Assembly: GCA_937975855.1 (NCBI GenBank)
Contig: CALJTT010000004.1
Span: 5,583 to 69,582, forward strand
Reading direction: 5' to 3'
Length of the DNA stretch: 64,000 nt
From: Minisyncoccota bacterium
GTDB lineage: Bacteria > Patescibacteriota > Minisyncoccia > Phycocordibacterales > UBA918
Under the pieces are notes generated by a model. The model was not told the DNA's origin. It saw only the letters and a list, made by a program, of their open reading frames with translations, and did not search any database. Below are positions 5,989 through 46,638 of this stretch, one piece after another (positions within the stretch are counted from its first letter, which is position 1; the number at the start of each line of letters is the position of its first letter). A program made the translations under genes and the position numbers.

Positions 5989-5998
5989 ACTGAATTGT

Positions 5999-33500: not shown

Positions 33501-35061
33501 GCTGTGAAATGTATTGCAAGGTGAACTCGGGAGCCTCACTTCTAGTAAAGTTTAATTTTTTACTGATCATTGACGCTGCTTCGGGAATTTTCAGGTGCTG
33601 CAAATTTTCTGGTGAACCACGCCGTTCGATATCTTCATTTGTGACAACCTTGGTTTGCAGCTCTATCCAAGCCGCGTCCAAGAACATACCATCTAGCAGA
33701 TCAACATCCCCGCGATATACAACCGAAATAGAGATATCTTCCAGATCGGTGAGCGAAGTTACGTCCGGTAGTGCAAACAAGAAATAACCACCATTGAGAG
33801 CGTTTGAAATTTCTTCCTCCAAAAGAACCACACCAACAGTTTGTTGTGTGGTTGAAGCGCCATAGAGAACTTCGATATAAGGAGCTTCACCGTCTGCTGC
33901 AGGAGTTTTGAGTTTGGCCGCCATAGAAACGCGCAACTGGGCGTCGGTGATGAACTGGCCAGGTTGAAGTTTAGGTAGATCAAAATCAGTCACAACCAAT
34001 TCGCTCTCAACAGGGTCAATCCGCTCGTCAGATTCACCTGTATTTATGTTGGTTGTTTGCGAATCTAATGATTCAGTCGGTAGCACTTCGGTAGTTGTGG
34101 CTGCTTGAGATGAAGTTGTTGATCCTAACGGTTCTTCAGGAACAAAATCCACCACATTATCAACCAGTTCTGAATCAACAGCATTCGCGACTGAGACCTC
34201 TTCTTCAGGAACAACATCGGTTGAAGTGGCAGAAGTGACATCATTAGCTGCAACTTCTTCAGGTAAAGATTCATTGTCTGTCTCTATCACCGCAATCTCT
34301 GGCGTTGAAGTTTCCGAATCCTGCACTTCCTCTTGTTCAAGGGTTTCTTCGTCAACTACCAGATCGTCTGTTGTTGATGTTGCAATATCAACCAACAAAG
34401 GATATTTGCCAACCGATGGTCTAATTGTTTGCGACAAGTACCATGGTGTCTGATAAAGCGCCTGGGAAGTTGTGGCGGAAAAATCTTCGATCTCAGTCTT
34501 ATCCTCCTGAACTTGTTCGTCTGTAACTTCAACAGTCTGTACTTCTTCAGGAATCGCGGCAGTGTTTGAAACAGTTTCTTGTAGCTGCTCTTGTAGGCCA
34601 GAATCAGAGGACGAAGAGACGACGGGCTCTATCTCTAAATCGTTTACAACTGTCGAAGGTTCGACAGTATCTCGCTTTTTAGCTGTTGGAATGACAATTC
34701 GTTCTTGAGCTATAAACGATGAATTTTTTGCAGTGAAGTTTTGATAAAGACTGTCATTATCAAGATCGCGCACCAGCGCACGCTTGGAAGAAGCCCATGA
34801 ATCTGCCTCGGTTTCTGTTGGGTAAACCTCAACCGCAACATCAGAACCAAAGCTGATCGGTTCGCGCTTTGAGTACGCAGCTTCGGGTTCAAGAATAGAT
34901 ATTAAAAATACAACAACCAGAGTAAGAGCCAGCGATTTTGCAAAATAGTGACCAACACTAAAAGGCGAAATTAAACCATTTCGCGCTGTATTAACAGTAT
35001 TTATTTGTACTTCGTTTCTTTGGTTGTCGAGTTTATTCGTACCCACAAAGATAATGGCCAA
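18511..35061 (-). CDS. Giant (5516 aa) membrane-anchored surface protein/adhesin. Layout: N-terminal TM, acidic S/T/E/V-rich stalk, two FN3-like modules, six-bladed W-D/N-G-x-x-W beta-propeller, three tandem ~770-800-aa super-repeats of beta-helix-like units, DUF2341/LamG-like domain, Cys-containing C-terminal region ending in a Y-W-G-I tag.
   Basis: Uninterrupted 16,551-nt ORF. TM LALTLVVVFLISIL. FN3-like TTYYWRIQARDPEG (~30691-30740) and TTYWWRVRAKDP (~29911-29950). Blades VWDGTTW (29371-29420) to TWNGSSW (~28631-28665). Repeated ...SLYSQDH..DGDLYI.G.Y...WSYATDFDGT at ~26090, ~23690, ~21400. RWRNDDGN at 20711-20760 followed by D-F-D-D-L-R-F...Y-W...VWVQVP...YMYYNN (DUF2341 signature, ~20330-20700). 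Confidence 0.8.
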   Translation of the reverse strand: MAIIFVGTNKLDNQRNEVQINTVNTARNGLISPFSVGHYFAKSLALTLVVVFLISILEPEAAYSKREPISFGSDVAVEVYPTETEADSWASSKRALVRDLDNDSLYQNFTAKNSSFIAQERIVIPTAKKRDTVEPSTVVNDLEIEPVVSSSSDSGLQEQLQETVSNTAAIPEEVQTVEVTDEQVQEDKTEIEDFSATTSQALYQTPWYLSQTIRPSVGKYPLLVDIATSTTDDLVVDEETLEQEEVQDSETSTPEIAVIETDNESLPEEVAANDVTSATSTDVVPEEEVSVANAVDSELVDNVVDFVPEEPLGSTTSSQAATTTEVLPTESLDSQTTNINTGESDERIDPVESELVVTDFDLPKLQPGQFITDAQLRVSMAAKLKTPAADGEAPYIEVLYGASTTQQTVGVVLLEEEISNALNGGYFLFALPDVTSLTDLEDISISVVYRGDVDLLDGMFLDAAWIELQTKVVTNEDIERRGSPENLQHLKIPEAASMISKKLNFTRSEAPEFTLQYISQRNALVRGFRSILRSDMVEVENVLVSHKSYGPMPLQPEVSVTPDGKFDIKIPDAQLVNLRPGEYEIELTLNEGGKQTIDTFSFQWGILTINSNKTEYATGESVNFSVGAITPTGHTICSANIDLYVTDPAGVIERLPVVESGLCDGNNVIDVPDFLASSTAGIPGEYKLYLERLSDDGEVLSFTSDTFRVVETQDVSISREGPTRIYPPAAYPMILTVDSSAGFDGTLTERVPKDFEIFDTDASITIDNDDQVLTWDVSVSAGESIEVSYQFDAPDISPFLFVLGAAELQGDVVRTASTTGSSNISFVEHRQWQIASDAVGKMLLFWDSGASIPTDWVCVSCAPADPFYQRFIVASSTYNNTGGAATHTHTAVGSVLGSAAASTESGSGAVAPVSHTHTYTPTISSESNLPEYRQLRVIRYDVAAGEPTTIPAGAIAMFDTASSSLPAGWNRYAAQDGKYVYGEDTPGTTAGSNTHTHGITGTTANAAGAGTRIRGGGSQQSGATDTHNHTVNSNSDSVDNQPPFIEILLAELSADDAPPNGLIAMWDEDVDGGWVSVSDDGDAFSNRFIKAAATYGATGDVQSHTHADALGITSSGPSATINARSGSSGSAGAHTHQVDATDFSTDDHLPPYVTVRFGKRQGVDPVYTQLSSRWYANAASLTPTEPWPNDGGGVDLIEREPITATSTPVADGDVVRLRLNTEVTNATSTIGSDFKLQFAEASVCSFAATWTDVGDVASAAIWRGYNVGGIADGATLPSTLLSSSTVVATYEEDALASSTPNEIAVSDVGEWDFVLEHNGASAGTQYCFRLVQADGTVFFSYNHYPQLLTNFSPDTLTLDKPFISEKTASTTQEFYFTAFDDEGDNVHYSIEIDDDPAFGSPLVAKNTISNSSQFENQVLVADKAPFRHGEQMKFTPVVSFTDGTTYYWRIQARDPEGSNSWGNWSEIYNFTVDATLLATAWFQTENEQFQAGALDGVEVSGDSVQLITGSTTGTLTSESIVFFDGVNGTVWEDFVFTDVETTGSISYQIEYYDGSAWSLVPDSALPGNSSGFGTSPVPLLDVDTGEYDTLRVVATFTNSGGSPTLQDWTINWGYKVETPTIFSLFANEQVGTTTPTFEFVADDPQSEDLTYQISWSTDRDFAASTTRTSDVDGGFTNIVTGADTSPFNANERIRFEIQPADALTGTTTYWWRVRAKDPTGDNVYSFWTVERSLTVIPGTDVSTWFQTTKDQFDTDILSGTISTEAGYLTVATTATEAMIVYGEGIETEPRYRLWTGTVLSEEGTLLDISAPLKWSVVKAAPTREEYIAVTLGTDADINAQTYTIGEWRSQQELTTSVSDISARGFDVEYETLSGDAIAVYCDGDADPSYYVWDGTTWTSGGTINVAETTNCTWIELAANPTSDEMVIMVRGSDGNPFEAQVWDGSAWGNPTTLGRITESAYAGMALEYEESGGQAVIVASDGNPARFTWSSWNGTAWSAAANQTIGNDFEWGSLVRDEGSDDMALCLVDDTSDIAVVRWDGAAWTLDDNLETASVKTEPSFDCSFETTSGRDNHIMLTYSDATATNYQTYNNTAWSAETQVNTIINTATMQLERMGEGLILGAFLDNANDTLRFSTWNGSSWSTTVDLVTNVSVDTSPYGRPYDIGARQPGSTGSTIVSPPVYFEDGTGPYWQEFAWNDFQPGTSEIRYFVQYLSATNSWQMIPPSDLPVNELGTTTSPIDLSGLDRFTYNVVRPFAELACDGSGNCPEMYDWAVTWAAGLTISGTAQGYDQSTNVTSGNVVVAVNGVLQAGKVGTISAGVWSIDNVTVFPGDIVTVFVSGAADAAEAVGVTLYDGIGDIDGFELYERHVSIGSNDATSTPLTNLDIGSYTFTNDEDVFLSLSGSVLNTCADAGCTDAELYIKSGALYQPEGDIITHDFENNGSFTLETHSMEVSGSWENSATTSLSDSTVLFSALVGNEVIDNTGATTTFGSLTFGSTTSSAIWTVSPLLDVNGNLTVETGTLARATTSINVVGDITTGATGFWTGIGTTTLDGNSASIWSDKNVTLQNIGHVVIDGSSKIISLGSDVAAQSITIGIDDTLDASSNNYDLYVYGDWTNNNAFVARQGEVFFVATTTSHVIISAADAFYDLSFTGVGGSWSFAETEVFVNNNLTIATGTVTLPTATTTIDGSFDSTGGAFLHNNGVLYFTSDGPENITFDGAEFTNVAHNMTFEGAGTWTMTDTNATSTNDVNILQGSVLFPSGVFAIGGSLVADSGSFDGGTGTTRFYSSVAEVLTTSGSSFNNVVFDGIGSWSFSDTNALATGDLFVYGGALTLPDTFTIGGSYDNQATVSAGTSLVVFDSLDNGETIDFGADPLHDVLIASETGGWTVVSSATTTGTFTLASSSDFTMQSGESLSVAGEFHNYVGGASTTWTGSTLSLEAGAYSINNETDPGDTYGTIRVANDTDIKMWNSDAVVYDVDATGSLYSQDHGAIDGDLYIFGNYNIAGGNEYWSYATDFDGTDLAALSAQRQANVRFADGASADFDSVTFEIIGDFAASTTVANQGSGTYNVTVSGGTFDAQYHTFSNLGSTGLSLLDAVSVGVFENGSYQVDAVAGTALTLSSTTIDANPANQLYEISFSTTSAIFATNVSQTDGTPLSYWWFRSGAGNLYGESNDSDTGDPGSIRFDDSLLVITMAGTVYADAGVTPLGGPTCDGATAVVNVYVEGNPAPYTGSCDAGTGAYSISGITIVGDPALTIYLNNAAGGEQGSIITRTPTANILDADIYANRVIVRHEDLAALTINQLAVRDNSEDVDLQFVAATNTDSDTLTVLSGNELYVWASTTFTPGGEVTLAGEGAGTSYDGSLTLADNATFNAFATSTLAIGGRFTLGASSTFNAASTTVLMNASTTGKLITAGDEVTFNNLTFDGAGGGWALTADIRVLGDVLMTDGVLSGNGDIYVESGDFAGAGTVLLNGGTTTMAVANNLGGAGSWTFHNLQLGDTLSVGTTTPLFTSTTTIGGVLTIEMAHFLDAGSTIWDLAGTGVVFVEEGTFLADTSTVVYSGPGSEVLATEYYNLTLAASGAPATYTTGTPGIIVDNDLVIAGVAATTFDQTTNDPQFDINGDVTIESNGVWVLSDLATTTIAGSYDNNGVLTAGTGTLTFDGSGAISVAAGSSDFANVVIDATGDVTVTEHATATDSWLLTDANTFTLNSGQTLSVGGTFFNDIGGAPTTWTGSTLRLYGGNNYAINASTTADSYATLEVDGTTQVRMWNSDALSYTVDTTASLYSQDHSNVDGDLYIWGSYNQTAANDHWSYATDFDGTSLAGSERIASVYIADNGSVTITGGQLSVLGSASASSTVENQGSGTYALTIGGTASSTFDYYTLSDLNIDGLVITGSASIGSLSHGSIGVSQTGGSAVTVGGTAITANPAKAFTLNQLYLDGAASGFGATATGTSVSSWRFTNHYGDIAGEGFDVDPDGDPGYVSWDDSAANITISGTVYSDEGVTTAGASVCDGATTAVNVVVAGLTTYSSTCDGSGVYSVTGVTYSPGDSIIAYLLPATGEEGATVTADPVSNISNFDIYQNRVIVRHEATDPLTIADMSVWDSSDDAAIPFTAVDSAPDTLTVDSGFGLIVWTDKTFAPQGDMTVTGGSALDYDGTLKLLSGSTFDGGAAEVYSLGGSLISETDATFDAQTSSTTFTSSSAGRTVDTNDSGFYNLAFAGSGDWTMLDGDINNNFLITDGTVTLPSSTTTVSGSFVNSGGAFDANSGTLLFDSAVAGKTVTFGGSDANEVLFSGPGTWTMSDTTATATASFIVVDGTVTLPTGTLTVAGDFVVDGTIAHAGGEVVLTSTTGGNLVTLSGNDLNSLTIAAAAGDYTLIDMSASLLDSLTLTGGTFTVGTGTLAIGGSFDVSGGTYSHASGTLLFNSNDAGEFIDPGANDLYNVVIAGTGGWTLTDSATTTNNFSLSNAGSFTVVPGSVLYVGGVFSNDVGGAATTWTSTTLVLDGSNEYETNDKTIPTEAYDTLVLGENTDISSWNSSATTVSVPSSSSWYSQDHAGADGDLNIYGDYHISTTTEYWSYATDFDGTDLSGSERVVTVRLADNSSATVDGGSLQIVGEAGNETNITNQGSGTYSFAVSSGALNALYYSVRNTDAAGWQLSGVPTISSLSYGDFELAVDGGSLMTLSSSTVNANASLIITGSRFATSASITGNNITLSGVTGNVWTFASHVGNLDGEVYDIDGATDCGSVRWGDSSCLITQQTDFRWRNDDGNAQVPDIEWMNTDWAARQPVRLTNADAATYTDVAVQVTVPYDSDMRSDFDDLRFTDNTGTTTVPYWIGSSTDSTIVEVWVQVPTMPAESDTVLYMYYNNPSATSSSDLEQVFVAADDFEDNDIAEYTGQTALFATDASFAFDGTYGLGNAGNESSRATLGGMYRFDQSVSQGETIRYQQYVDTSAGTSDETCVLFGVQSPGSTNENYAVCIEQFGTDRITLVRDAVENDASGTIIGSSTVTYTTGWYEVEVDWRTNDTFDLRLYNDAGTQVTSFSASDSTYTTGGYGFTFWFHNGGWDSFSSRPTMTSKPNVRFGAEQSDGGATWAAEQNTAATFEAGDTARLRLAVENSGGAITAQRFALEYVPKGSAPSCEAVSTAGYLDVPVQSSCGLSPVCMQTSTEVTNGETTVDLLNDVSGQFTAGELREDPSNETGDLDIAMFEYTEIEYVITPTINVDDQNLCFRVTDQGTELDTYLEVAELTLRFDPVLGSLSLNDGLDISLSAGTTTEIIASTTVTDLNGIADIVSATTTFYKTSVGAACSPDDNNCYVATSSCTYTNCTTNACSLQCSAPIVYHADPTDLDGAEEWFAFMEVEDTTGAVDFVTSTGVELLTLRALDIQNSIAYGVVEVTNNTGAFNPAVTLHNIGNESIDVQIAGTDMSDGASSVIAAAQQRYATSTFNYAACVGCSALTVTPANLELDLSKPTTTTPGVTDNLYWGIEVPFGSASRPHTGINSFTAIGD
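20700..28500 (-). repeat. Three tandem in-frame super-repeats (~2.3-2.4 kb each, ~770-800 aa) inside the giant gene, each composed of shorter ~45-50-aa beta-helix-like sub-repeats
   Basis: Anchor motif (S/W)LYSQDH..(V/I)DGDL(Y/N)I.G.Y.......(Y/H)WSYATDFDGT(D/S)L recurs at ~26090, ~23690, ~21400. Flanking segments align over hundreds of residues (e.g., SGTVY(A/S)D.GVT..G..CDGAT.AVNV.V and IYANRVIVRHE(D/A)). Confidence 0.75.
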
Positions 35062-35094
35062 GCCTCATAAGATAGAGACGTGAGCCATTCTAAA

Positions 35095-35131
35095 GTATAA
35101 CGCGCGACTCCAAAGGAATCGCGCGTTATAC
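35095..35131 (-). promoter_or_regulatory. Perfect 13-bp inverted repeat hairpin (gtataacgcgcga / tcgcgcgttatac, 11-nt loop) between the cohesin-anchor gene end and the giant gene start. Either a terminator/insulator or a 5'-leader structure.
   Basis: Read directly. Located 34 nt upstream of the giant gene start codon and 28 nt downstream of the 35159 gene stop. Confidence 0.4.
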
Positions 35132-35158
35132 TCAGTTTTGTTGATTACTAGGCCTGCT

Positions 35159-36697
35159 TTACTTCAGAATCGCCTTTACATCACTGATTTCTTTTTCAAT
35201 CAAGGTTTCAGATACCTCTAGTGCTTGAGTCAAGCCTTGGACCGCTTCTCTTTCCTTTTCGGTTAGACGCTTGCGTTTTGTAATATGATTAACCTGATCG
35301 TAAATTTCGTCTCGTAAGGCAGAGAAAATTTTCTCCATCTGGTCTTGTATTTCGCGGGTTTCTCTGCGTAGTTTTTCTTCTTTGATACGCAGTTGCTTGT
35401 GTTCGTACCAAACGTAGATCAGCAGTAAGAGTATTGTAAGGAATAGGAAGAAGATCAGCAGGTTAATGAAGGTGAAGTAATCCCAGAACGACCATTCTTC
35501 AACTAGTTCTACTGGCTTAGTCCACCCAGCGGTAATCAAAGCTGCAGCGGTTGTCTCCCTGGAATTGCCCGCCATATCGTAGGCAGTTACGTATACAGAG
35601 TATGTACCGTCTTCCAACTCGCCCAGTAAGTAACCCAGCTCTGCCTGCTGTGGAGTCACAGTGATTGGCTCCCCTCCATCAATAACTAATTTATAGTAGT
35701 CGATGCCGGAAGTAGAATCATTCGCAGCAAAGGTGAGGGTCGGGAACGAGTCTCGGGAAGGGCCCGGGTTTACACCAATGGTAAATGGTTCCGGTTCGGT
35801 TGTATCAATTTTCAACTGACGATTGGTCGTTGCACCCCAACCAACCTGGTTCTTAAAGTTGATACTGACATACTGAATCCCGTCAGTCGTGTTATCTGAA
35901 CTGACAACAAATTCATCAGTTGGTGGATCGATGATCGCTTCAAAGTTGTCTTGAGGAATGTTCTCAGGATCAGTACTAACTTCAACTGCAACCGCACTAA
36001 CATCAAACGGAAGTGTCCAGGCAAAGACACCGTCTGTGCTGTTGTACCAAATTTCAGAGTCGAGGAATATAGGTGATCCGATTTCTGGTGGTCGTGGAGG
36101 GTCACCGAAGATAATTGCTTCTTCAGAATCTTGGGCAGGCTGTGCAGCCGGTGCAGGTGCTTCTGCAGGTTCAGGTGTAGGGGCAGGCGGAGGTGTTGCC
36201 GCACCGCTCAGGGAATAATTACCACCAGTTCCGTTCTCAAAAACATCTGTACCACGACCGTCAGCTGCTAGTACAGAAGCTTCACCAAAATCCACTACAG
36301 CGTCACCTTCCCCAACGACTCTGAATGTCACATTAACCAGGTTAGATGTGGTAGTAAAAGGAGTTGGGCTACCGCCACCAAAGGTCACAGTTCCAGCGCT
36401 ATTAGAAAAGGTTGGCTCTGTAGTCCAAAGTGAGAAAACTGAACCTGACTTACTAACACTAACGACAGAAAGTTTACTAGCATCAAATGAAAGAGTTGAT
36501 TCGACAGCATTAACACTATCTCCACCTGGAACCGCACGAACAGTCACGGTAAAAGTTTGTCCGGAGGAATAAGAGCCTGTACTAGGTGAGACCACTAGAT
36601 CAGCCGCCAAAGAAAAATGGGCGCTCAGGAAAAATAATAAAATCGCTATTAGGGATAAGACGATTTGTTTTGGAAAGAACTGCTTTTGTTGAATCAT
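35159..36697 (-). CDS. Type-I membrane protein: signal peptide, N-terminal cohesin-like domain, Pro/Ala-rich linker, Ig-like domains, C-terminal TM helix and conserved cytoplasmic coiled-coil tail (paralog of 5999..7768)
   Basis: Signal (LSLIAILLFFLSAHFSLAA). Cohesin-like block LVVSPSTGSYSSGQTFTVTVRAV...VNAVESTLSFDASKLSVVSV..SVFSLWTTEP...TVTFGGGSP. Linker PPPAPTPEPAEAPAPAAQPAQ. TM FINLLIFFLFLTILLLLIYVWY. The tail ends ...TLIEKEISDVKAILK (compare ...AVEKEIQDVTKLAEKD in the paralog). Confidence 0.55.
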   Translation of the reverse strand: MIQQKQFFPKQIVLSLIAILLFFLSAHFSLAADLVVSPSTGSYSSGQTFTVTVRAVPGGDSVNAVESTLSFDASKLSVVSVSKSGSVFSLWTTEPTFSNSAGTVTFGGGSPTPFTTTSNLVNVTFRVVGEGDAVVDFGEASVLAADGRGTDVFENGTGGNYSLSGAATPPPAPTPEPAEAPAPAAQPAQDSEEAIIFGDPPRPPEIGSPIFLDSEIWYNSTDGVFAWTLPFDVSAVAVEVSTDPENIPQDNFEAIIDPPTDEFVVSSDNTTDGIQYVSINFKNQVGWGATTNRQLKIDTTEPEPFTIGVNPGPSRDSFPTLTFAANDSTSGIDYYKLVIDGGEPITVTPQQAELGYLLGELEDGTYSVYVTAYDMAGNSRETTAAALITAGWTKPVELVEEWSFWDYFTFINLLIFFLFLTILLLLIYVWYEHKQLRIKEEKLRRETREIQDQMEKIFSALRDEIYDQVNHITKRKRLTEKEREAVQGLTQALEVSETLIEKEISDVKAILK

Positions 36698-36700
36698 AAA

Positions 36701-37231
36701 TTAATCTTTAGCTCTTTTAGTACTCTTTTTCCTAACCACCCTTCTCTTTACTTTAGCTTTTGCGTTTGAACCTTGTGCTCTGCGGCCACCGCTTACTTTA
36801 AGAGTAACCTTTTCCTTTTCACTAGGTTTCAAGAGTGGCAACATTAGTATAAGTACACCATTTTTTATTTTAGCGTCAGCCTTTTCTATGTTTACACTTT
36901 CTGGGAGAATGATCCGTCGGTAAAAATCTCCCCAGACGCATTCTTCCGCCACAAAAGAGCCCTGCACTTTTTTGCCTGGAAAAGCTATGTATTCTGGCCT
37001 GATCCTTTTTCCTTCTATCAAGACTATATCTGCATCACCCTCAATTGAGACACGTACGTCATTCATATCCGCCCCCGCTGACTGGGCGTAGACCACAATC
37101 ATGCGTTCGGTTTGGTACACGTCAACGTGCAACTGAGCAACTTTGTCCGCAGCAGTTTCTTCAGCGTCTGACAACAACCCCTGATCCTGGTTACGAACAC
37201 CCCTACCTTTAAGTCTCTGTAGAAAGGACAT
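36701..37231 (-). CDS. Small heat-shock protein, Hsp20/alpha-crystallin family, with Lys/Arg-rich C-terminal tail
   Basis: ACD-like core LHVDVYQTERMIVVYAQSAGADMNDVRVSIEGD.DIVLIEGKR and ...NIEKADAKIKNGVLILMLPL. C-terminal KAKVKRRVVRKKSTKRAKD. Confidence 0.65.
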   Translation of the reverse strand: MSFLQRLKGRGVRNQDQGLLSDAEETAADKVAQLHVDVYQTERMIVVYAQSAGADMNDVRVSIEGDADIVLIEGKRIRPEYIAFPGKKVQGSFVAEECVWGDFYRRIILPESVNIEKADAKIKNGVLILMLPLLKPSEKEKVTLKVSGGRRAQGSNAKAKVKRRVVRKKSTKRAKD

Positions 37232-37282
37232 ATACGACTATTATACTTAATTACAGGAAGCGCGTTTGTGGTTTACCCACAA

Positions 37283-39238
37283 CTAGCCAGTCCAGTTAAA
37301 CAAGAGAATCGAGAAGTCTGTCAGACTGACTCTGCCATCTTGGTTTATATCTGCCGGTGGATCTGAATCCCCACCATCAGTTTCCCACCAAAATAACATG
37401 ATGGAAAAGTCTATCAAGTTAACAAACCCGTCACGGTTCAGGTCAGGATGAAGTGGTAGGTCGGCGCTCTGTCCAATTCCATAAAATTCATAATCCGAAA
37501 AGTTAGTAAAGGCAGCACCTTCTTGTTGTGCTTTTGCTCGAACTCTATATGTATCGCGTGCAAAACCAGTAGTTGTCAGTGTTGTACTGTACGACCCACT
37601 ACTGTCAGAAACTGCTACCAACTGAACAGTATTGGCACCGCTACTACGACCCGTTTCTAGTGTAATTGTTGCGTTGGGCAATGCGTACCCAGAAATAGTG
37701 ACAACCTCCCCCGCTTCCGCCGGATCAGGATCGACGTTGATTGATGGTGTGATATTAATATTGGAAAGTCTGGATGCTCTAGCTCCACTTATGGTAAATG
37801 ATGTGCTGTATGTACCTGAAAAATCACCAGTCCGATCCGTCGCGTACACGCCAAAAGTGTAGGCTCCACGTGCAATTTCGTCGATTATAATCGAGTACGA
37901 CCCGTCTGCTTTGGCGGTTACTGTATCGGCAATCTGTCCATCTACTAATATAGTGACCTCTGAGCCAGGAAAAGCCATACCAGAGAGAATAAGTCTACCG
38001 TCGCCACTTTCGTACGGACCGTCGCCGTCCTCAAAACCACCACCTGAGCCACCACCTGAGCCACCGCCTGAGCCACCGCCACCACCGGAGGACCCACCAC
38101 TAGAACCTGTAGAGCCGCCCACGTTTCCAGGGTCAGTTCCGTCACCGGCACCGGTACCATCTGTATTACCGCTACCGGTATCCCCACTTCCTGTACCGCC
38201 ATCTCCCAACCCTGCTCCTGGACCTCCAATTTCACCGTCTTCGTTAGGGGTTCCTGTGTTATTAGTGTCCGCCACTATGAACTGAATCAAATAGTCGTCG
38301 ATGTTCTCATTACCTTCATCATCGATACATCTGACGTACACCTGCACTACGGAAGCTGGAGTAATAGGAACGACGGCTGTGTGGGTAATCAGACCTGTGT
38401 TGTCAAACGAATTTGGTTGTGAAAAATATGGTGTACCAGATGCACTACTCCATCGACAGATGGCAAATTCGTCTGTTTCCAAAGAAACTTCAATAGACAA
38501 ACTGGTGCCAGGGAAAACCGCCAGCGTGCCCGAGGCTGTCGTTGTAGGCTGACCGTTAAAACGAAGTGGTGGGATCGTTTCTGTGGTGTCTGCGTTGACA
38601 GAAATTTTTTGATTCAAAAAAACCAGAAACCGAGCATCTGCGATACTTGTGCCGTCAACAATTTTTAAAGGAATCGAATGCGAACCTAGTACCGAACTGT
38701 TTTTAATTGGCTCAATATCTGTAACAGTTGTGGTTCCAGCAGAAAATCCATGAAGGGAACCTGACGTATGCTCACCGACCCGAAGTTCGACGCGAGCGCC
38801 TGGCGAAATTGTTAAATCGCTTGCCAATGTGTATCGCACAACACCGCCTGCACCCCTTGTAATATCAACGCGATCCACTCCGACACCAAGCACACTGTCG
38901 GCAGCCCGGGCAGAACCGTTTACATACAACTCGACGTTTCGGGCAGAAAAAGCACTGGTCGAGGCTGTTACTTCAAAGGTTGCCGGAAAGGTTGCTTCAA
39001 TATATGAACCAGGATTAATGGTCACATCTGGAACAAAGGAGAATGTATGGTTTGAAAATTGGCCCGGCCCTGAGTCAGACAGCGTGTCAGAGTATTGGGT
39101 AATATTAACAGCCAAAGCCTCAGTACCAGTTAAGGCCCAAAGACACAGTGTTACAAAAAATAAGATACGAACAGGCCGCAACATACGTGAATATGTATAT
39201 TGTACCGTGCGATACTCAAAAAAAACTGTGCTACCCAC
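37283..39238 (-). CDS. Secreted dockerin-bearing protein. Its N-terminal module has the same Y-S-D-T-L-S-D-S motif as the WxL-like proteins. Then a Gly/Ser/Asp/Thr-rich linker, Ig-like domains and a C-terminal dockerin. Probable start at the internal Met (~39184).
   Basis: Signal (ILFFVTLCLWALTGTEALA). AVNITQYSDTLSDSGPGQFSNHTFSF parallels ANVTTFSDTLTDSAPSVVSDHTIEF of 8912..10042. Low-complexity GTGSGDTGSGNTDGTGAGDG...GGSGGGSGGG. Dockerin DLNRDGFVNLIDFSIMLFWWETDGGDSDPPADINQDGRVSLTDFSILLFNWTG. Confidence 0.55.
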   Translation of the reverse strand: MGSTVFFEYRTVQYTYSRMLRPVRILFFVTLCLWALTGTEALAVNITQYSDTLSDSGPGQFSNHTFSFVPDVTINPGSYIEATFPATFEVTASTSAFSARNVELYVNGSARAADSVLGVGVDRVDITRGAGGVVRYTLASDLTISPGARVELRVGEHTSGSLHGFSAGTTTVTDIEPIKNSSVLGSHSIPLKIVDGTSIADARFLVFLNQKISVNADTTETIPPLRFNGQPTTTASGTLAVFPGTSLSIEVSLETDEFAICRWSSASGTPYFSQPNSFDNTGLITHTAVVPITPASVVQVYVRCIDDEGNENIDDYLIQFIVADTNNTGTPNEDGEIGGPGAGLGDGGTGSGDTGSGNTDGTGAGDGTDPGNVGGSTGSSGGSSGGGGGSGGGSGGGSGGGFEDGDGPYESGDGRLILSGMAFPGSEVTILVDGQIADTVTAKADGSYSIIIDEIARGAYTFGVYATDRTGDFSGTYSTSFTISGARASRLSNINITPSINVDPDPAEAGEVVTISGYALPNATITLETGRSSGANTVQLVAVSDSSGSYSTTLTTTGFARDTYRVRAKAQQEGAAFTNFSDYEFYGIGQSADLPLHPDLNRDGFVNLIDFSIMLFWWETDGGDSDPPADINQDGRVSLTDFSILLFNWTG

Positions 39239-39662
39239 TGGAAAGTGCAGATTCTACACTGGGGCGCGCCTGGCCTCGCGATCGAAGATAATCCAAGGCG
39301 TAATTTAGTACGATCAATATCAGTTGAACAAACAAAACGGCGGCCAGTAAATAGGTAGTTCTATTGTTACTATTTTCGTCCGCCGGTTGAGTTTCTAAGT
39401 TGAGGAAAATTTCTCGATCTTCGATTGTTGCCTCGCGCTGGTCAAGTAACAACTTTTGACGGGTCAACTCAGCAGTTATTGCATTGTATTCGGTTGGAGC
39501 TACAGAAACTGACATGCCTACATTGGCAGCCAAATAGTCGGTGGTTGTATTGAACAGTGCGGTGCTGCGCTCATCTATAAAACCACTCTGAAACATCAGA
39601 ACAGCCCCCATAACAACTGCGGATATACGTAGCACGCGTCTATATGTTTCCTGGGGTCCCAT
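39231..39662 (-). CDS. Small bitopic/2-TM membrane protein of unknown function
   Basis: 143-aa ORF with hydrophobic segments ISAVVMGAVLMF and YLLAAVLFVQLILIVLNYAL. Sits between the dockerin gene and the DUF916-like gene. Confidence 0.35.
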   Translation of the reverse strand: MGPQETYRRVLRISAVVMGAVLMFQSGFIDERSTALFNTTTDYLAANVGMSVSVAPTEYNAITAELTRQKLLLDQREATIEDREIFLNLETQPADENSNNRTTYLLAAVLFVQLILIVLNYALDYLRSRGQARPSVESALSSG

Positions 39663-39684
39663 GTCTGTATTATATCAGTACAGC

Positions 39685-40749
39685 CTAGGCAAAGAGTACC
39701 AACATAACCAACAAGAACAGAGCCAAGACAATGAGGACAGAAACAATGACCAATAAAGTAGCTGAAGATCCACCTTGCCCTTTCCTTCTTATCATTCGTC
39801 GTCCAGCGTTAACCTGTGCCAAAGCCCGCCTGACGTACAACTTAACCCCGATAATAGTCACTAGCAAAATAAACGCCAGAGCTCCCAAGGCAGGACCGAG
39901 TATGTTTAGCGGTAGAATCCAGAAAGTAACTGTGTTACTCATGGTTTTGTAGGCTCCTTGATCGCCATACACTGGACTAAGGATAGCTTCGTAGCGCCCA
40001 AAACCTGCTCCGTCTCCAATCCAGTTAACATCAGCAAACTCACGAGTCTTGCCTGGAAATACACCAGCGCGAGATTCATTAAAAGTAAGCTCGCCTACTC
40101 GTTTTCCAAGTGAGTTGTGAATAACCAGTGGCCCAGCCGGTCGAACCAATACATTACCGTTGTTTTCAATTTTAACGTTAAAGTCAACGTCCTGAGCACT
40201 ATAAATAAATTTACCGGTTGAAAATTGACGAATGCTAGCTTGTTCAACCACGTCACCAGTCACACGAATGCTAAGAATGTTGGCAACCTGATAGCCAACC
40301 GCGGCGCCACTGTTTTCCATCTCAGGAGGATCGGCAGATACAAACACTCCACCGAAGTGACTACCGGGGGATGCGCCTTTTGGGACCTCGAGAGTAAATT
40401 TCACCACCTCTGTTTCACCACCCTGCAGAAAAACACTGTCAGTCGACAAGTTAATCCAGGCAGCTAATTCATAGCCTGTCTCTTCCCAATCGTCGGCAAA
40501 TATAGGAACTCCGCCATCCCCTACTGATCTAATATTACGCGTGAATAAGAAATACTGCTGCGGAGCTGAATGTAAGTTCTGGATTTCAATTTCGAAGTTA
40601 TGAAGCGTGCCAGCATCAAGAGTTTCTTCTATTACCCCCGGAGAAATAGAAACACCAGCTTCTTGTGCCGAGGCAATCGACTGTGCAAATAACAAGAACA
40701 TCAAACAAGCAATTGTGGCAATGGTTTTATAGGGAACGATACGCAGCAT
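39685..40749 (-). CDS. DUF916/CscA-like cell-surface protein with signal peptide and C-terminal TM anchor(s) (paralog of 11386..12333)
   Basis: Signal (IACLMFLLFAQSIASAQEA). VSISPGVIEETLDAGTLHNFEIEIQN... has the same pattern as 11386..12333. C-terminal TM ALGALAFILLVTIIGVKLYV, a basic stretch, then a second hydrophobic helix. Confidence 0.4.
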   Translation of the reverse strand: MLRIVPYKTIATIACLMFLLFAQSIASAQEAGVSISPGVIEETLDAGTLHNFEIEIQNLHSAPQQYFLFTRNIRSVGDGGVPIFADDWEETGYELAAWINLSTDSVFLQGGETEVVKFTLEVPKGASPGSHFGGVFVSADPPEMENSGAAVGYQVANILSIRVTGDVVEQASIRQFSTGKFIYSAQDVDFNVKIENNGNVLVRPAGPLVIHNSLGKRVGELTFNESRAGVFPGKTREFADVNWIGDGAGFGRYEAILSPVYGDQGAYKTMSNTVTFWILPLNILGPALGALAFILLVTIIGVKLYVRRALAQVNAGRRMIRRKGQGGSSATLLVIVSVLIVLALFLLVMLVLFA

Positions 40750-40810
40750 AAATTAATCAATTATATTCAGTCCAGTGTAACAGCTACTTCGTCAAATTAT
40801 TTTTGTTCTC

Positions 40811-40840
40811 AACAACAAAACCTCCCAAAGGGAGGTTTTG
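40811..40840 (-). terminator. Rho-independent terminator downstream of the WxL-like gene 40864..41991 (stem aacctccc/gggaggtt, loop aaa)
   Basis: aacaacaaaacctcccaaagggaggttttgtg read directly. Confidence 0.65.
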
Positions 40841-40863
40841 TGTCAACTTCTAATTAAGGTCAA

Positions 40864-41991
40864 TTAGAAAGTTGGTGTTGCGATGTATGTCAGGATTGTA
40901 TTGTAATCATCACCAGCTTCTTGGAATGATGTAATCTCAATTTTGTACGCTACTTCAGTTTCACCAACGTCTGCAGTTACTCCGTCAGTTGGACCATCGT
41001 GTGAGAAGATCTGACGAGGAGTTGTACTAGCGGCTACGAATAGCTGTGTGCCAAACTCGTCAGTGTTAAGGTCTGAGTCCTCAGATGTGAGTCCCCAGTG
41101 ACCCCATTCGTTTTCACCACCTGCAAGTGTTCCTGTAGGTGGAACCCAGGCTGTTGGTGTGTCAACGTAGGTCCCGTCTGTGAAGCCATCAATATCTGCT
41201 CCAGTTGACGATAGAAGGTTTTGATCTTGTTCAACCGTTACCACAAATCCGTTAATAGCATTGGTTGTAACGTTTAGCTTTTGACCTAAAACTTCTGGTA
41301 CACCAGCTACTAGCTGTGCGTAGTCGATGGTAGTTGCTGTAGTTGAACCAGTTGTTGTTTCCCCGTTAACATCAGTTGATGTTGCCAGTCCAGTTACAAC
41401 GAATTCAAATACTGTGTCTACAATCGCAGTAACGAGTACGTTATCTACGATCGCAACACGTGTACGACCTAAGTCTGCATCAGCGTTAGCTACAGCGACT
41501 TCAATTTCGTATGAGTCTCCGACACCAGCGGCATTAACTTTAGCTGGGTTAGTAATTACTCCGTCCGCGACCACAATCTCTACTACCTGCCCCGCGACCG
41601 CTGTTGCGCCGTCTACCACGATGGTGTCAGCTGTAGCGCTAACGAAAGCTCCACTGGCTACACCATCGACTGTTACTGTCACATCCCCCGCAAGAACGTT
41701 GGCAACGTCTACAAATGACTGTCCGACTGTTCCGTCGTCTTGACTGTCAAACGTAACGGTAATGTTATCAGCTGGTGCGATTCCTACACTACCTACTGGT
41801 ACTGTGAATTGAATCGTGTGACCTGACGTCTCTGATGGTGCAGAGTCTGTCAGTGTGTCGCTGATATTAGTGAGGTTAGCTGCTTGTGCGATTTGGTGAA
41901 AGCCGATAGTAGCTGTCACAACTGCACATGCAACAAGTGTCGTGACCACTCGTTGCGTAACGCCAACTTCTAAAGTTGATTTTACGAACAT
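40864..41991 (-). CDS. Secreted Thr-rich surface protein with WxL-like C-terminal domain (paralog of 8912..10042)
   Basis: N-terminal hydrophobic anchor/signal. ANLTNISDTLTDSAPSETSGHTIQF. C-terminus ...ENEWGHWGLTSEDSDL...DDYNTILTYIATPTF. Strong terminator immediately downstream (40811..40840) and a 330-nt leader upstream. Confidence 0.5.
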   Translation of the reverse strand: MFVKSTLEVGVTQRVVTTLVACAVVTATIGFHQIAQAANLTNISDTLTDSAPSETSGHTIQFTVPVGSVGIAPADNITVTFDSQDDGTVGQSFVDVANVLAGDVTVTVDGVASGAFVSATADTIVVDGATAVAGQVVEIVVADGVITNPAKVNAAGVGDSYEIEVAVANADADLGRTRVAIVDNVLVTAIVDTVFEFVVTGLATSTDVNGETTTGSTTATTIDYAQLVAGVPEVLGQKLNVTTNAINGFVVTVEQDQNLLSSTGADIDGFTDGTYVDTPTAWVPPTGTLAGGENEWGHWGLTSEDSDLNTDEFGTQLFVAASTTPRQIFSHDGPTDGVTADVGETEVAYKIEITSFQEAGDDYNTILTYIATPTF

Positions 41992-42320
41992 GTTTGTTTG
42001 TATTTATTTTTTAAATAACTACGCTCTAGTGGCCGTTGTACTGAACACTTGAACTAACTCGGTAGAGCGTTTATGGAGATGACTACTAGTTTCAAATTAT
42101 GAGAAAAACTCAGCCTGTGAAATTTAGTTGCCCGCTTCTACCGATCTGTCTTTAGTATATTCTGTCTTTATTAAACTGTCCTAAATGTGCTGTTGATAAC
42201 TCTTATTGTGTGACCTTGTGTCGGATAAAATCCTTTGTTTATGAACAGTTTGTGGGCATCTTGTCGGACGTGGCGGATATAACACTTCAAGTACAAATGT
42301 CTGATATTTACTTTAACTGC

Positions 42321-43577: not shown

Positions 43578-44014
43578 ACCAAACGCCGCAGAGTGCCAGT
43601 AACCACACCCCATACGTGAACATCATCAGCGTCACCAATGGGAATCGGTGCGTAACCTTCTTTGGCTGAAACCAGCTTACTCTGTGATGAAGTTTTATAT
43701 AACTGCTTAACGACAAGTTCACCGTAGACTGCCGCCACAACTATGGACAGATGTTCCGCTGGAACTGAACGATCTACTACCAAAACATCTCCGTCAAAGA
43801 TTCGCTTTCCTTCCATAGAGTCACCGCTGACACGCACAAAGAAAGTCGCAGTCTCGTTATCGATCATTAGATCATTTAAATTCAAAGGTCTTTCAACCAC
43901 ATCGTCGCCAGGAGTTGGAAAGCCAGCCGCTGGCTGTACGTCGTACAAAGGGGCTTCCACACCATCCACCTCCGCCTTGTTTACCTTTGTGACATTCGAG
44001 TCAGTTACTTTCAT
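43574..44014 (-). CDS. umuD: UmuD-like S24 LexA-family self-cleaving peptidase subunit
   Basis: MKVTDSNVTK... with an A-G cleavage site context (QPAAGFP), the catalytic Ser motif (VSGDSMEG) and a Lys (VVKQLYK). ~146 aa, so UmuD-sized rather than LexA. ATGA overlap with umuC. Confidence 0.7.
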   Translation of the reverse strand: MKVTDSNVTKVNKAEVDGVEAPLYDVQPAAGFPTPGDDVVERPLNLNDLMIDNETATFFVRVSGDSMEGKRIFDGDVLVVDRSVPAEHLSIVVAAVYGELVVKQLYKTSSQSKLVSAKEGYAPIPIGDADDVHVWGVVTGTLRRLV

Positions 44015-44043
44015 TCTTATGAGTATATATGAGTATATAAAAA

Positions 44044-44058: not shown

Positions 44059-44081
44059 CATCAACACCCACGTAAATTTGA

Positions 44082-45264: not shown

Positions 45265-46638
<1,374 letters not shown>

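What the first reader, a model, noticed from the sequence alone, without database searches (positions are those of the whole stretch)
37283..39238. Module swap: the same N-terminal (T/Y)-S-D-T-L-(T/S)-D-S module carries either a WxL-like end or a dockerin
AVNITQYSDTLSDSGPGQFSNHTFSF (dockerin protein 37283..39238), ANVTTFSDTLTDSAPSVVSDHTIEF (8912..10042) and ANLTNISDTLTDSAPSETSGHTIQF (40864..41991) share a conserved post-signal module. The C-terminal attachment device differs between them: WxL-like versus a cohesin-binding dockerin. The motif also resembles the F-S-D-T-E core of SipW-cognate (TasA/camelysin-type) signal regions. This suggests combinatorial use of two different surface-tethering systems for one protein family, and possibly a dedicated signal peptidase.
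Basis: seen in the sequence. Interest (0 to 1): 0.65.

Follow-up and report, generated by a model that had tools for sequence, protein, structure and literature searches.

The report
Pilin-like subunit with dockerin anchor
In this ultra-small (Patescibacteria) bacterium, a surface-fibre subunit family and a dockerin-bearing protein share the same 170-residue N-terminal domain plus connecting strand, inside a six-gene cluster conserved across the group, which suggests a fibre whose base is clipped to a membrane cohesin rather than two alternative anchors or a special signal peptidase.

Summary
The three proteins share more than an 8-residue motif. They share a whole Ig-like N-terminal domain (NTD) plus the strand that follows it (hhalign 99.1%, E 1e-18). 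The similarity stops exactly where the 375/376-aa proteins begin their C-terminal domain (CTD).

The CTD gives no WxL profile hit. It is a sub-threshold, end-to-end relative of the CPR 'Pam' pilin C-domain (NF058581). The adjacent gene is a membrane-anchored WxLIP/DUF916 homologue.

The dockerin protein is NTD, linker, Ig spacers and a type I dockerin. A membrane-anchored cohesin lies two genes downstream.

The order pilin, WxLIP-like, 143-aa membrane protein, NTD-dockerin, Hsp20, cohesin-TM recurs in 42 complete sets among 59 related loci, all Patescibacteria.

Best reading (inferred, about 0.5): the 375/376-aa proteins polymerise by donor-strand exchange as Pam pilins do. The CTD-less dockerin protein would donate its linker to the last subunit, which terminates the fibre and ties it to the membrane cohesin.

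The SipW idea fails: no TIGR04088 hit in 70 proteins scanned, canonical AXA cleavage sites, and no S26 peptidase in the window.

I rate it a new variant of a known kind, of moderate to high interest.

The parts
37283..39238 (-). NTD-linker-dockerin protein (651-aa ORF from GTG). The probable true start is ATG at 39184, which gives 633 aa.
   Evidence: ORF. Pfam Big_6 and Dockerin_1 are both above cutoff. The family has 22 word-index homologues and at least 88 NTD+dockerin cluster representatives.
39035..39112 (-). Conserved post-signal motif AVNITQYSDTLSDSGPGQFSNHTFSF (residues 43-68). The predicted AXA cleavage is A43|V44.
   Evidence: It forms the first two beta-strands of the NTD at pLDDT about 90.
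38615..39109 (-). N-terminal Ig-like beta-sandwich (NTD, residues 44-208), homologous to the pilin NTD.
   Evidence: hhalign 99.1%, E 9.6e-19. AlphaFold2 strands 46-208 at pLDDT mostly above 87. Foldseek best single-domain matches are BslA 4bhu and TTHA1873 for both models.
38579..38614 (-). Linker NQKISVNADTTE (residues 209-220), the candidate donor strand. It aligns with the pilin linker DNVLVTAIVDT.
   Evidence: Alignment. The hydrophobic pattern is the same in 87 dockerin-family and 47 pilin sequences. It lies outside the NTD fold, and from residue 214 it has low confidence in the monomer model.
38273..38500 (-). Third beta domain (residues 247-322, weak Y_Y_Y-like match), followed by a Gly/Ser-rich spacer.
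37808..37993 (-). Big_6 bacterial Ig domain (residues 416-477).
   Evidence: PF17936, 35.8 bits against a cutoff of 27.6.
37304..37444 (-). Type I dockerin (residues 599-645) with two DxNxDGxV Ca-binding repeats.
   Evidence: PF00404, 28.7 bits against a cutoff of 22.9. My own dockerin HMM gives E 6.6e-46.
40864..41991 (-). Pilin-like protein B (375 aa): signal 1-37, NTD 38-181, linker 182-194, CTD 195-375.
   Evidence: AlphaFold2 mean pLDDT is 85.7, with the linker unpaired. Relatives match NF058581.
41410..41448 (-). Pilin B linker DNVLVTAIVDTVF, with alternating hydrophobic residues V185, V187, A189, V191, T193. It lies in the most conserved segment of the family.
   Evidence: Invariant and nearly invariant columns. 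Regional conservation is 0.79, against 0.53 for the NTD core.
8912..10042 (-). Pilin-like protein A (376 aa), a paralogue with the same architecture.
   Evidence: 47% identity to pilin B, E 5e-87. NF058581 E 1.5e-4. The A4 profile gives E 4e-18 over the NTD plus linker.
39685..40749 (-). WxLIP/DUF916-like protein (354 aa): signal peptide, Ig-like domains and C-terminal membrane segments. It is the candidate membrane-anchored chaperone.
11386..12333 (-). Second WxLIP-like protein (315 aa, C-terminal TM), in the paralogous cluster.
   Evidence: A3 HMM E 9e-67. TM segment 278-311.
39231..39662 (-). Conserved 143-aa protein with two hydrophobic segments. Its function is unknown.
   Evidence: It sits at the same position in the related loci.
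36701..37231 (-). Hsp20/alpha-crystallin protein without a signal peptide, always found between the dockerin and cohesin genes.
   Evidence: NCBIfam Hsp20 E 2.4e-8. Together with the cohesin gene it is present downstream in 44 of 44 loci that have enough downstream sequence.
35159..36697 (-). Membrane-anchored cohesin protein (512 aa): signal peptide, cohesin at 42-132, Ig-like region, TM at 404-433 and a cytoplasmic coiled-coil tail.
   Evidence: PF00963, 27.5 bits against a cutoff of 24.1. TM segment. Synteny.
4549..8792 (-). Further cohesin-module proteins of the second cluster: 5999..7768 (cohesin plus TM), 7728..8792 (cohesin-like plus TM) and 4549..5307 (cohesin plus dockerin adaptor). 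The range also spans an unrelated 224-aa ORF (5314..5988).
10284..11423 (-). Second dockerin protein (Cys-rich DUF4215 repeats, Big_6, dockerin). It has no NTD module.

Best explanation
The window carries a Patescibacteria surface-fibre system related to two known systems: the CPR 'Pam' pili and the WxL/WxLIP clusters of Firmicutes.

**Components**
- The 375- and 376-aa proteins are the fibre subunits. Each has a cleavable Sec signal, an Ig-like N-terminal domain that begins with the (T/Y)SDTL(T/S)DS strand, a strongly conserved linker with alternating hydrophobic residues, and a C-terminal domain.
- By analogy with PamA/PamB, the C-terminal domain would be an incomplete Ig fold that accepts the linker strand of the next subunit.
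- The adjacent WxLIP-like protein, anchored by C-terminal membrane segments, would cap that groove until the strand is exchanged.
- The 651-aa protein keeps the N-terminal domain and the linker but has no acceptor domain. In its place it carries Ig spacers and a dockerin.

**Proposed mechanism**
- The 651-aa protein donates its linker to the groove of the last-added, cell-proximal subunit.
- Because it cannot accept another strand, elongation stops there.
- Its dockerin then binds the cohesin of the single-pass membrane protein encoded two genes downstream, which tethers the fibre to the cell.
- This is the role proposed for PamR in Pam pili, carried out here by a non-covalent cohesin-dockerin joint.

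**Shown here:** the homologies, the domain boundaries, the dockerin and cohesin assignments, and the conserved gene cluster.

**Inferred:** polymerisation, strand donation by the dockerin protein, which dockerin binds which cohesin, and the polarity of the fibre.
For: 1. **Extent of homology.** Similarity between the dockerin protein and the pilins covers the NTD and the linker and ends at the CTD boundary. The pilin CTD HMM finds only the two pilins in the window.
2. **Pilin model and conservation.** The model has two beta domains joined by an unpaired stretch at 182-194. The last NTD strand plus linker is the most conserved region (0.79), followed by the CTD (0.71-0.76), with the NTD core at 0.53. 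The Pam preprint reports the same pattern for its donor linker and groove.
3. **Link to Pam pilins.** NF058581 CPR_Pam_pilin_C matches 32 of 47 relatives (best E 5.2e-8). In several it covers model positions 3-148 up to the exact C-terminus.
4. **Chaperone candidate.** The neighbouring protein is a WxLIP homologue with a C-terminal TM. WxLIP is predicted to complete the WxL sandwich with one of its own strands (PMC10599100). PamC/D are likewise membrane-anchored.
5. **Linker retained without an acceptor domain.** The xAIVxxVxVxA hydrophobic pattern after the NTD is kept in 87 NTD-dockerin representatives. These include minimal 258-305-aa proteins that are only NTD, linker, short spacer and dockerin.
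6. **Synteny.** The gene order pilin, WxLIP-like, 143-aa protein, NTD-dockerin, Hsp20, cohesin-TM holds on one strand. It holds in 39 of 42 loci with upstream room and 44 of 44 with downstream room. There are 42 complete sets, all from Patescibacteria genomes or metagenomes.
7. **Anchor parts.** The dockerin and the cohesin both exceed Pfam thresholds, and the cohesin protein has one TM followed by a cytoplasmic tail.
Against: - No filament has been seen for this family.
- The window pilins fail the curated NF058581 cutoff (21.8 bits, or no hit, against 55).
- No multimer prediction could be run, so strand insertion is untested.
- In the dockerin family the linker is conserved in hydrophobic pattern but only 0.55 in identity. 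The neighbouring IPPxRFNG segment is more conserved (0.77) and is unexplained.
- A test for within-genome co-variation between pilin and dockerin-protein linkers gave no signal (605 of 2000 shuffles reached the observed score).
- No CTD-only tip subunit was found in the window or the related loci.
- The second pilin cluster (8912..12333) has no NTD-dockerin gene of its own.
Confidence: 0.5

Rival explanations
1. Two alternative tethers for one displayed head, essentially the first reader's view. The NTD is the functional surface domain and is shown on the cell in two ways. In the 375/376-aa proteins it would be held through a C-domain that is strand-complemented and retained by the membrane-anchored WxLIP-like protein, as proposed for WxL and WxLIP. 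In the 651-aa protein it would be held through dockerin bound to a membrane cohesin. Nothing polymerises.
For: The WxLIP homology of the neighbouring gene, together with the published WxL-WxLIP model of a stable surface complex. The NTD is a promiscuous module that also occurs in tandem arrays and with other C-termini. Both NTD models resemble the surface-layer protein BslA. No filament evidence exists for this family.
Against: This view does not explain why a CTD-less protein keeps the post-NTD alternating hydrophobic linker, even in minimal NTD-linker-dockerin forms. It does not explain why the linker is the most conserved part of the pilins. It does not explain why the two 'alternative' forms are almost always encoded together in fixed order. 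The C-domain's only recurrent profile match is to the C-domain of pilins that cryo-EM showed to polymerise.
Confidence: 0.27
2. Plain domain shuffling with no functional link. The NTD is a common Ig-like building block of Patescibacteria surface proteins. The dockerin protein would be one of several cargoes of a cell-surface cohesin scaffold, with no physical connection to the pilin-like proteins.
For: The window holds three dockerin and four cohesin-module proteins, including a dockerin protein without the NTD and a cohesin-dockerin adaptor. NTD copies occur inside giant multi-repeat proteins.
Against: The six-gene order is nearly invariant across 42 complete loci from different genera. Homology extends past the domain into the linker. 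In the tandem-array proteins the best-scoring matched stretch ends before the linker (profile positions 9-164 and 91-167 of 206). This suggests the linker is specific to the N-terminal, pilin-like form.
Confidence: 0.15
3. The motif is a recognition element for a dedicated SipW-class signal peptidase, as in TasA and camelysin.
For: There is only a superficial resemblance of F-S-D-T-L to the F-S-D-T-E core. The signal peptide of the pilin-B orthologues is unusually conserved (0.72 mean column identity). That leaves some room for specialised targeting.
Against: No TIGR04088 hit in the three proteins at E<=1, in 47 pilin relatives or in 20 dockerin-family members. The cleavage sites are canonical AXA. 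The motif lies at mature positions +6 to +13 and is a structured strand of the NTD. The dockerin family's signal peptides are not conserved (0.33). No S26 peptidase lies in the window.
Confidence: 0.03

Closest known systems
Pam pili of CPR bacteria (PamA/PamB pilins, PamC/D membrane-anchored chaperones, PamR terminator-anchor; Troman et al., bioRxiv 10.64898/2026.03.03.709456)
   Same: Restricted to CPR bacteria. [quoted passage not shown] An adjacent gene encodes a two-domain Ig-like protein with a C-terminal TM. There are two paralogous pilins. The linker and C-domain are the most conserved parts. NF058581 gives colinear sub-threshold matches.
   Different: The window proteins do not reach the family cutoff. 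The host lineage is Paceibacteria/Parcubacteria-type, whereas the preprint reports mainly Saccharimonadia and Microgenomatia. The proposed terminator is a pilin-derived NTD-plus-linker protein with a dockerin, paired with a separate membrane cohesin. PamR instead is an RbmA-like protein with its own TM. No PamT-like tip was found. The preprint does not mention dockerin, cohesin, WxL or DUF916.
WxL / WxLIP (DUF916-DUF3324) surface-protein clusters of Lactobacillales and Bacillales (PMC10599100; PDB 9I1Y, 9I25)
   Same: A secreted protein whose C-terminal beta domain is encoded beside a signal-peptide, Ig-Ig, TM protein of the WxLIP family. The WxLIP homology is statistically supported. WxLIP is predicted to complete its partner's sandwich by inserting a strand. 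There is one literal W-G-L tripeptide in the C-domain.
   Different: No WxL (PF13731) match in 47 family members. No sequence match to any PDB chain, and entry 9I25 is described as containing a WxL chain. The distal WxL motif is replaced by Y-I/V-A. No dockerin-cohesin arm is part of WxL clusters as described in PMC10599100. WxL proteins are described there as peptidoglycan-bound, not polymeric.
Chaperone-usher pilus termination (PapH-type terminator; established knowledge, and cited in the Pam preprint)
   Same: The logic matches: a subunit that can donate a strand but cannot accept one ends polymerisation at the cell-proximal end and anchors the fibre.
   Different: There is no usher and no outer membrane. 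The acceptor domain is absent rather than blocked. Anchoring would be through dockerin-cohesin.
Cohesin-dockerin cell-surface anchoring (cellulosome scaffoldins and non-cellulosomal cohesin/dockerin modules; established knowledge)
   Same: A type I dockerin with two Ca-binding repeats and cohesin modules above Pfam thresholds. There is also a cohesin-plus-dockerin adaptor protein.
   Different: The cohesins sit on single-pass membrane proteins with cytoplasmic coiled-coil tails, not on S-layer-homology or sortase-anchored scaffoldins. The cargo is a pilin-like module, not an enzyme.
TasA/camelysin with SipW-cognate signal (TIGR04088)
   Same: A secreted fibre-type protein with a conserved segment just after the signal peptide.
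   Different: No profile match and no SipW nearby. The motif is an internal strand of a different fold.

Membership tests
Pam pilin (NCBIfam NF058581 CPR_Pam_pilin_C) | Score at or above the curated cutoff (55 bits) on the C-terminal domain model | tested here: not met
   The 376-aa protein scores 21.8 bits (E 1.5e-4) and the 375-aa protein has no hit. 32 of 47 relatives hit at E<=0.1 (best 5.2e-8). The ten scanned individually scored 18.5-23.9 bits or gave no hit, and several are colinear over model positions 3-148 to the C-terminus.
Pam pilin (NCBIfam NF058581 CPR_Pam_pilin_C) | Architecture: N-terminal beta-sandwich, single linker strand, C-terminal Ig-like domain | tested here: met
   AlphaFold2 model at pLDDT 85.7 with strands 41-181, an unpaired stretch at 182-194 and strands 195-373. 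Whether the CTD has an open groove could not be inspected.
Pam pilin (NCBIfam NF058581 CPR_Pam_pilin_C) | Adjacent membrane-anchored two-domain chaperone-like gene | tested here: met
   39685..40749 and 11386..12333 each have a signal peptide, Ig-like domains and a C-terminal TM.
Pam pilin (NCBIfam NF058581 CPR_Pam_pilin_C) | Assembly into filaments by donor-strand exchange | not testable with these tools
   No multimer prediction or experiment was available.
WxL domain (Pfam PF13731) | Profile match to the WxL domain | tested here: not met
   No hit for the window proteins at E<=0.1. PF13731 is not among the families matched by the 47 relatives at E<=1. The profile finds no PDB chain at E<=10.
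WxL domain (Pfam PF13731) | Two Trp-x-Leu motifs in the C-terminal domain | tested here: not met
   There is only one literal W-G-L (W299-L301, invariant G-H-W). The distal position reads Y-I/V-A-T-P.
WxL domain (Pfam PF13731) | Encoded beside a WxLIP (DUF916) gene | tested here: met
   38 of 42 members of the neighbour's family hit PF06030 (best 3.2e-9). The profile hits EfmWxLIP1 (9i25_C) at E 2.8e-5.
WxLIP (Pfam PF06030 WxLIP_PGBD) | Score at or above the gathering threshold (27.3 bits) | tested here: not met
   The window protein scores 16.9 bits (E 0.0067). Family-level support is strong, so it is a distant homologue rather than a called member.
SipW-cognate signal peptide (TIGR04088) | Profile match over the signal region | tested here: not met
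   No hit at E<=1 for the three proteins. None in 47 plus 20 relatives at E<=0.1.
SipW-cognate signal peptide (TIGR04088) | A SipW-class (S26B) signal peptidase in the genome or neighbourhood | tested here: inconclusive
   No S26 peptidase was found among the window ORFs scanned. The S24 protein at 43574..44071 is UmuD, next to UmuC. The rest of the genome is not available.
Type I dockerin (PF00404) and cohesin (PF00963) | Both modules above gathering thresholds | tested here: met
   Dockerin 28.7 bits against 22.9. Cohesin in 35159..36697 27.5 bits against 24.1, and in 5999..7768 25.8 bits against 24.1.
Type I dockerin (PF00404) and cohesin (PF00963) | Specific binding between this dockerin and the neighbouring cohesin | not testable with these tools
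   Inferred only from conserved adjacency (44 of 44 loci).

The most novel reading that the evidence does not exclude
Paceibacteria-type CPR bacteria build a donor-strand-exchange fibre whose terminal subunit is a truncated pilin carrying a dockerin, so that the whole fibre is plugged non-covalently into a membrane cohesin. This would be the first pilus anchored by a cohesin-dockerin joint. The same locus shows that CPR Pam pili and the Firmicute WxL/WxLIP surface system are branches of one ancient usher-less, membrane-chaperone assembly system.
Probability: 0.4. Interest if true: 0.78.

Novelty: new variant of a known kind. Interest (0 to 1): 0.62.

Why it matters
Patescibacteria make up a large share of bacterial diversity and are thought to live attached to host cells, yet their attachment structures are barely known.

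- **Size of the family.** The pilin-like family has more than 1,700 detected relatives, no Pfam family, and only 'hypothetical protein' labels.
- **A wider range for Pam-type fibres.** Placing this family, with its WxLIP-like partner, next to the newly described Pam pili would extend that pilus type beyond the two classes where the preprint mainly found it. It would also connect it to the WxL adhesion system of enterococci, listeriae and lactobacilli.
- **A possible new anchoring principle.** The dockerin-bearing truncated pilin and its membrane cohesin suggest a modular, non-covalent way to anchor a fibre in a cell without an outer membrane, usher or sortase step.
- **Testability.** Each interaction can be tested directly with recombinant proteins.

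Tried and rejected
- **PDB sequence search.** The pilin profile found nothing, even at E<=10.
- **Giant protein as tip.** I asked whether the giant downstream protein (18511..35061) ends in a pilin-type acceptor domain and could serve as a tip. hhalign of its last 300 residues against the pilin profile gave 0.1% probability. The CTD HMM gave only a non-significant hit elsewhere in the protein. Rejected.
- **Linker co-variation.** A within-genome test between pilin and dockerin-protein linkers over 22 loci gave no signal (605 of 2000 shuffles reached the observed score). The linkers vary too little for the test to have power.
- **Promoters and terminators.** The scan of 35000..42400 found no more sites than in shuffled sequence.
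- **Source record.** The organism is therefore inferred only from named relatives: Kaiserbacteria, Nomurabacteria and Paceibacteria.
- **S24 peptidase.** I considered the S24 protein at 43574..44071 as a possible dedicated peptidase. It sits beside UmuC (42321..43613), so it is UmuD.
Full report
**1. Observation**

The three minus-strand ORFs are as described.
- A six-frame regex search for [ST]D[ST][LIVMFE][ST]D[ST] gives four matches in the window. Three are the named ones, each just after a hydrophobic signal sequence that ends in an AXA site: AQA|AN, AEA|AN and ALA|VN.
- BLASTP links the 651-aa protein to the 376-aa protein at E 3e-8 and to the 375-aa protein at E 1e-6.
- The two shorter proteins are 47% identical paralogues.
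- The GTG start at 39238 is probably wrong. M19 (ATG at 39184) matches the homologues, and the exact 651-aa sequence is absent from the protein collection.

**2. How far the shared module goes**

I built alignments of the pilin-like family (A1, 47 sequences) and of the N-terminal 335 residues of the dockerin protein with its homologues (A2, 20 sequences).
- hhalign gives 99.1% probability and E 9.6e-19. Residues 32-219 of the dockerin protein align with residues 26-194 of the 375-aa protein.
- The shared unit is the end of the signal peptide, the motif, a complete beta-sandwich domain (NTD) and the strand after it. It ends exactly where the short proteins start their C-terminal domain (CTD).
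- An HMM of the CTD finds only the two short proteins in the window. An HMM of the NTD plus linker finds all three.

AlphaFold2 models agree with this.
- The 375-aa protein (mean pLDDT 85.7) has strands 41-181, an unpaired stretch at 182-194 and a second beta domain at 195-373.
- The dockerin protein's N-terminus has a confident NTD (46-208), a low-confidence stretch at 214-244 and a further small beta domain.
- In both models the SDTL(T/S)DS motif is the first strand of the NTD, at pLDDT about 90 or higher. It is a structural element of the mature protein, not part of the signal peptide.
- The best single-domain Foldseek matches of both models are the same: BslA 4bhu and TTHA1873.

**3. What the 'WxL-like' end is**

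- Pfam gives no WxL hit for the window proteins, and PF13731 is not among the families matched by the 47 relatives at E<=1.
- The family profile matches no PDB chain even at E<=10, and entry 9I25 is described as containing a WxL chain.
- The only recurrent profile match is NCBIfam NF058581, 'CPR_Pam_pilin_C'. It matches 32 of 47 relatives (best E 5.2e-8). In several relatives the match covers model positions 3-148 up to the exact C-terminus.
- These matches fall well short of the 55-bit cutoff. The ten relatives scanned individually scored 18.5-23.9 bits or gave no hit. The window's 376-aa protein scores 21.8 bits and the 375-aa protein gives no hit.

That model comes from a 2026 preprint (10.64898/2026.03.03.709456).
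- Cryo-EM of Ca. Mycosynbacter amalyticus filaments showed pilins with an N-terminal beta-sandwich, a single linker strand and a truncated Ig-like C-domain.
- The linker of one subunit completes the C-domain of its neighbour.
- PamC/D are chaperone-like proteins held in the membrane by a C-terminal helix.
- PamR is proposed to insert an N-terminal strand into the last pilin and to anchor the filament.

The architecture and conservation pattern here match that description.
- The last NTD strand plus linker is the most conserved region of the family (0.79 mean column identity). The CTD follows (0.71-0.76), and the NTD core is lowest at 0.53.
- The linker has alternating conserved hydrophobic residues: V185, V187, A189, V191, T193, F195, F197.

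**4. The neighbour links the locus to WxL clusters after all**

- The 354-aa protein at 39685..40749 has a signal peptide and C-terminal membrane segments.
- It belongs to a family of at least 832 proteins. Some are annotated DUF916 in Kaiserbacteria and Nomurabacteria.
- 38 of 42 aligned members hit Pfam WxLIP_PGBD (best 3.2e-9).
- The family profile hits the solved E. faecium WxLIP (9i25_C, 9i1y_A) at E about 3e-5.
- In the WxL literature, WxLIP is predicted to insert a strand into a gap of the WxL sandwich (PMC10599100). This is the same principle as the Pam chaperones.
- The Pam preprint does not mention WxL, DUF916, dockerin, cohesin or Parcubacteria.
- 'WxL-like' is therefore wrong as a domain call but right about the kind of locus.

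**5. The dockerin arm**

- The 651-aa protein ends in a type I dockerin above the Pfam threshold, preceded by Big_6 and further Ig domains and a Gly/Ser-rich spacer.
- Two genes downstream lies a 512-aa protein with a signal peptide, a cohesin above threshold, one TM and a cytoplasmic coiled-coil tail.
- The window holds four cohesin-module proteins and three dockerin proteins in all.

**6. Conservation elsewhere**

An exhaustive HMM search with the NTD-plus-linker profile finds 431 cluster representatives. The best 150 break down as follows:
- 88 have the NTD plus a dockerin. These include minimal 258-305-aa proteins that are just NTD, linker, a short Pro/Gly spacer and dockerin.
- 58 are NTD-only, mostly fragments.
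- One is a pilin.
- Two are giant proteins with 9-10 tandem NTD copies.

The consensus after the NTD is GRTRVAIvDnV.VTAiV.T in the pilins and g.amiAiv.pV.v.a in the dockerin family. The hydrophobic pattern is the same in both.

Three metagenome contigs and 56 loci from GTDB species genomes were examined. All are labelled Patescibacteria, mainly Nomura-, Kaiser-, Pacei- and Parcubacteria. They show one gene order on one strand: pilin, WxLIP-like, 143-aa membrane protein, 0.2-6 kb of variable genes, NTD-dockerin, Hsp20, cohesin-TM.
- 39 of 42 loci with enough upstream sequence have the first three genes.
- 44 of 44 loci with enough downstream sequence have Hsp20 and the cohesin.
- 42 loci have all six genes.

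**7. Mechanism**

The best-supported reading is that the short proteins are Pam-type fibre subunits and the 651-aa protein is the terminator and anchor.
- It can donate the linker but has no acceptor domain.
- It would therefore cap the cell-proximal groove, release the fibre from the membrane-anchored WxLIP-like chaperone, and dock on the membrane cohesin.
- The homologies, domain boundaries, modules and synteny are shown. Polymerisation, strand donation, pairing specificity and polarity are inferred.
- I put this at about 0.5.

In it, one displayed head has two different tethers, CTD-WxLIP or dockerin-cohesin, and nothing polymerises. That picture does not explain why CTD-less proteins retain the linker, nor the obligatory co-occurrence of both forms.

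Plain domain shuffling gets about 0.15 and a SipW-type signal about 0.03.

**8. The SipW idea**

- TIGR04088 does not hit the three proteins at E<=1, 47 pilin relatives or 20 dockerin-family members.
- The cleavage sites are canonical AXA.
- No S26 peptidase is encoded in the window. The S24 protein at 43574..44071 is UmuD, next to UmuC.
- One oddity remains. The signal peptide of the pilin-B orthologues is unusually conserved (0.72), while that of the dockerin family is not (0.33).

**9. Limits**

- Pam pilin coordinates were not among the PDB matches.
- A linker co-variation test had no power.
- No tip subunit was found.

**10. Verdict**

This is a new variant of a known kind: a Pam/WxL-type strand-complementation system joined to a cohesin-dockerin anchor and conserved across Paceibacteria-type CPR bacteria. 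Interest is 0.62.

Noticed in passing
window 4549..12333 (minus strand): A second, differently arranged paralogous cluster. In order it holds a WxLIP-like protein (11386..12333), a Cys-rich DUF4215/myxo-disulfide-repeat protein with a dockerin but no NTD (10284..11423), pilin A (8912..10042), two cohesin-module membrane proteins (7728..8792, 5999..7768), a 224-aa coiled-coil-like protein, and a small cohesin-plus-dockerin adaptor (4549..5307).
   Followed up: partly
window 36701..37231; loci L001-L059: A cytoplasmic-looking Hsp20/alpha-crystallin gene with no signal peptide and a Lys/Arg-rich tail lies between the dockerin and cohesin genes. Together with the cohesin gene it is present in 44 of 44 related loci with enough downstream sequence. 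Why a small heat-shock protein is locked into a surface-protein cluster is unexplained.
   Followed up: partly
window 18511..35061 (minus strand): A giant 5516-aa secreted protein (DUF2341, weak Rha78A-like Ig match) follows the cohesin gene. Giant ORFs of 2438-6942 aa sit at the same position in L001-L003. Its C-terminus shows no similarity to the pilin acceptor domain.
   Followed up: partly
window 40864..41991, residues 1-37; alignment A1: The signal peptide of the pilin-B orthologues is unusually conserved. Its mean column identity is 0.72, higher than the NTD core at 0.53, and R14-A23 are nearly invariant. The dockerin family's signal peptides are not conserved (0.33).
   Followed up: no
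proteins P0263 (3077 aa) and P0386 (3212 aa): The NTD module also occurs as 9-10 tandem copies inside giant proteins. In the best-scoring stretch of each, the match stops before the linker segment.
   Followed up: partly
protein P0359 (378 aa): This protein has two tandem NTD modules followed by a short C-terminal hydrophobic tail (…AAAPEFTDIMYGSTLLLSGWYMYNKFNKFK). That may be a third kind of anchor for the same module.
   Followed up: no
window 39231..39662; same position in the related loci: A conserved 143-aa protein with two hydrophobic segments always follows the WxLIP-like gene. No family match was found, so it may be an unrecognised membrane component of the system.
   Followed up: partly
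window 38540..38578 (residues 221-233 of the 651-aa protein); alignment A2: The segment DTTExIPPxRFNGxP, just after the linker, is the most conserved stretch of this dockerin subfamily (0.77). AlphaFold2 nevertheless predicts it with pLDDT below 50, which suggests it becomes ordered only on binding a partner.
   Followed up: no
window 53983..56608 (minus strand): A sortase gene (53983..54612) overlaps the end of a 667-aa protein with a lamin-tail domain. So a third, covalent surface-anchoring route is also encoded in the window.
   Followed up: no
window 42321..44071 (minus strand): A UmuD-like S24 peptidase and a UmuC/ImpB Y-family polymerase form a pair immediately upstream of the pilin gene. 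The polymerase is also next to the cluster in L003.
   Followed up: no
window 39100..39108, 9920..9928, 41869..41877: All three mature N-termini begin with an N-x-T sequon (NIT, NVT, NLT). The dockerin family also keeps N-H-T. Whether these sites are glycosylated is unknown; the Pam preprint reports extra density on a PamA serine.
   Followed up: no
loci L003 and L029: In these two loci the NTD part and the dockerin part lie in separate adjacent ORFs. This could be a frameshift, an assembly error or a genuine split.
   Followed up: no
window 46695..52727 (minus strand): A 2010-aa secreted protein combines a glucose/sorbosone dehydrogenase beta-propeller with PKD, CBM_4_9 and Big_7 domains. A GH26-like gene lies next to it (45265..46638).
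   Followed up: no
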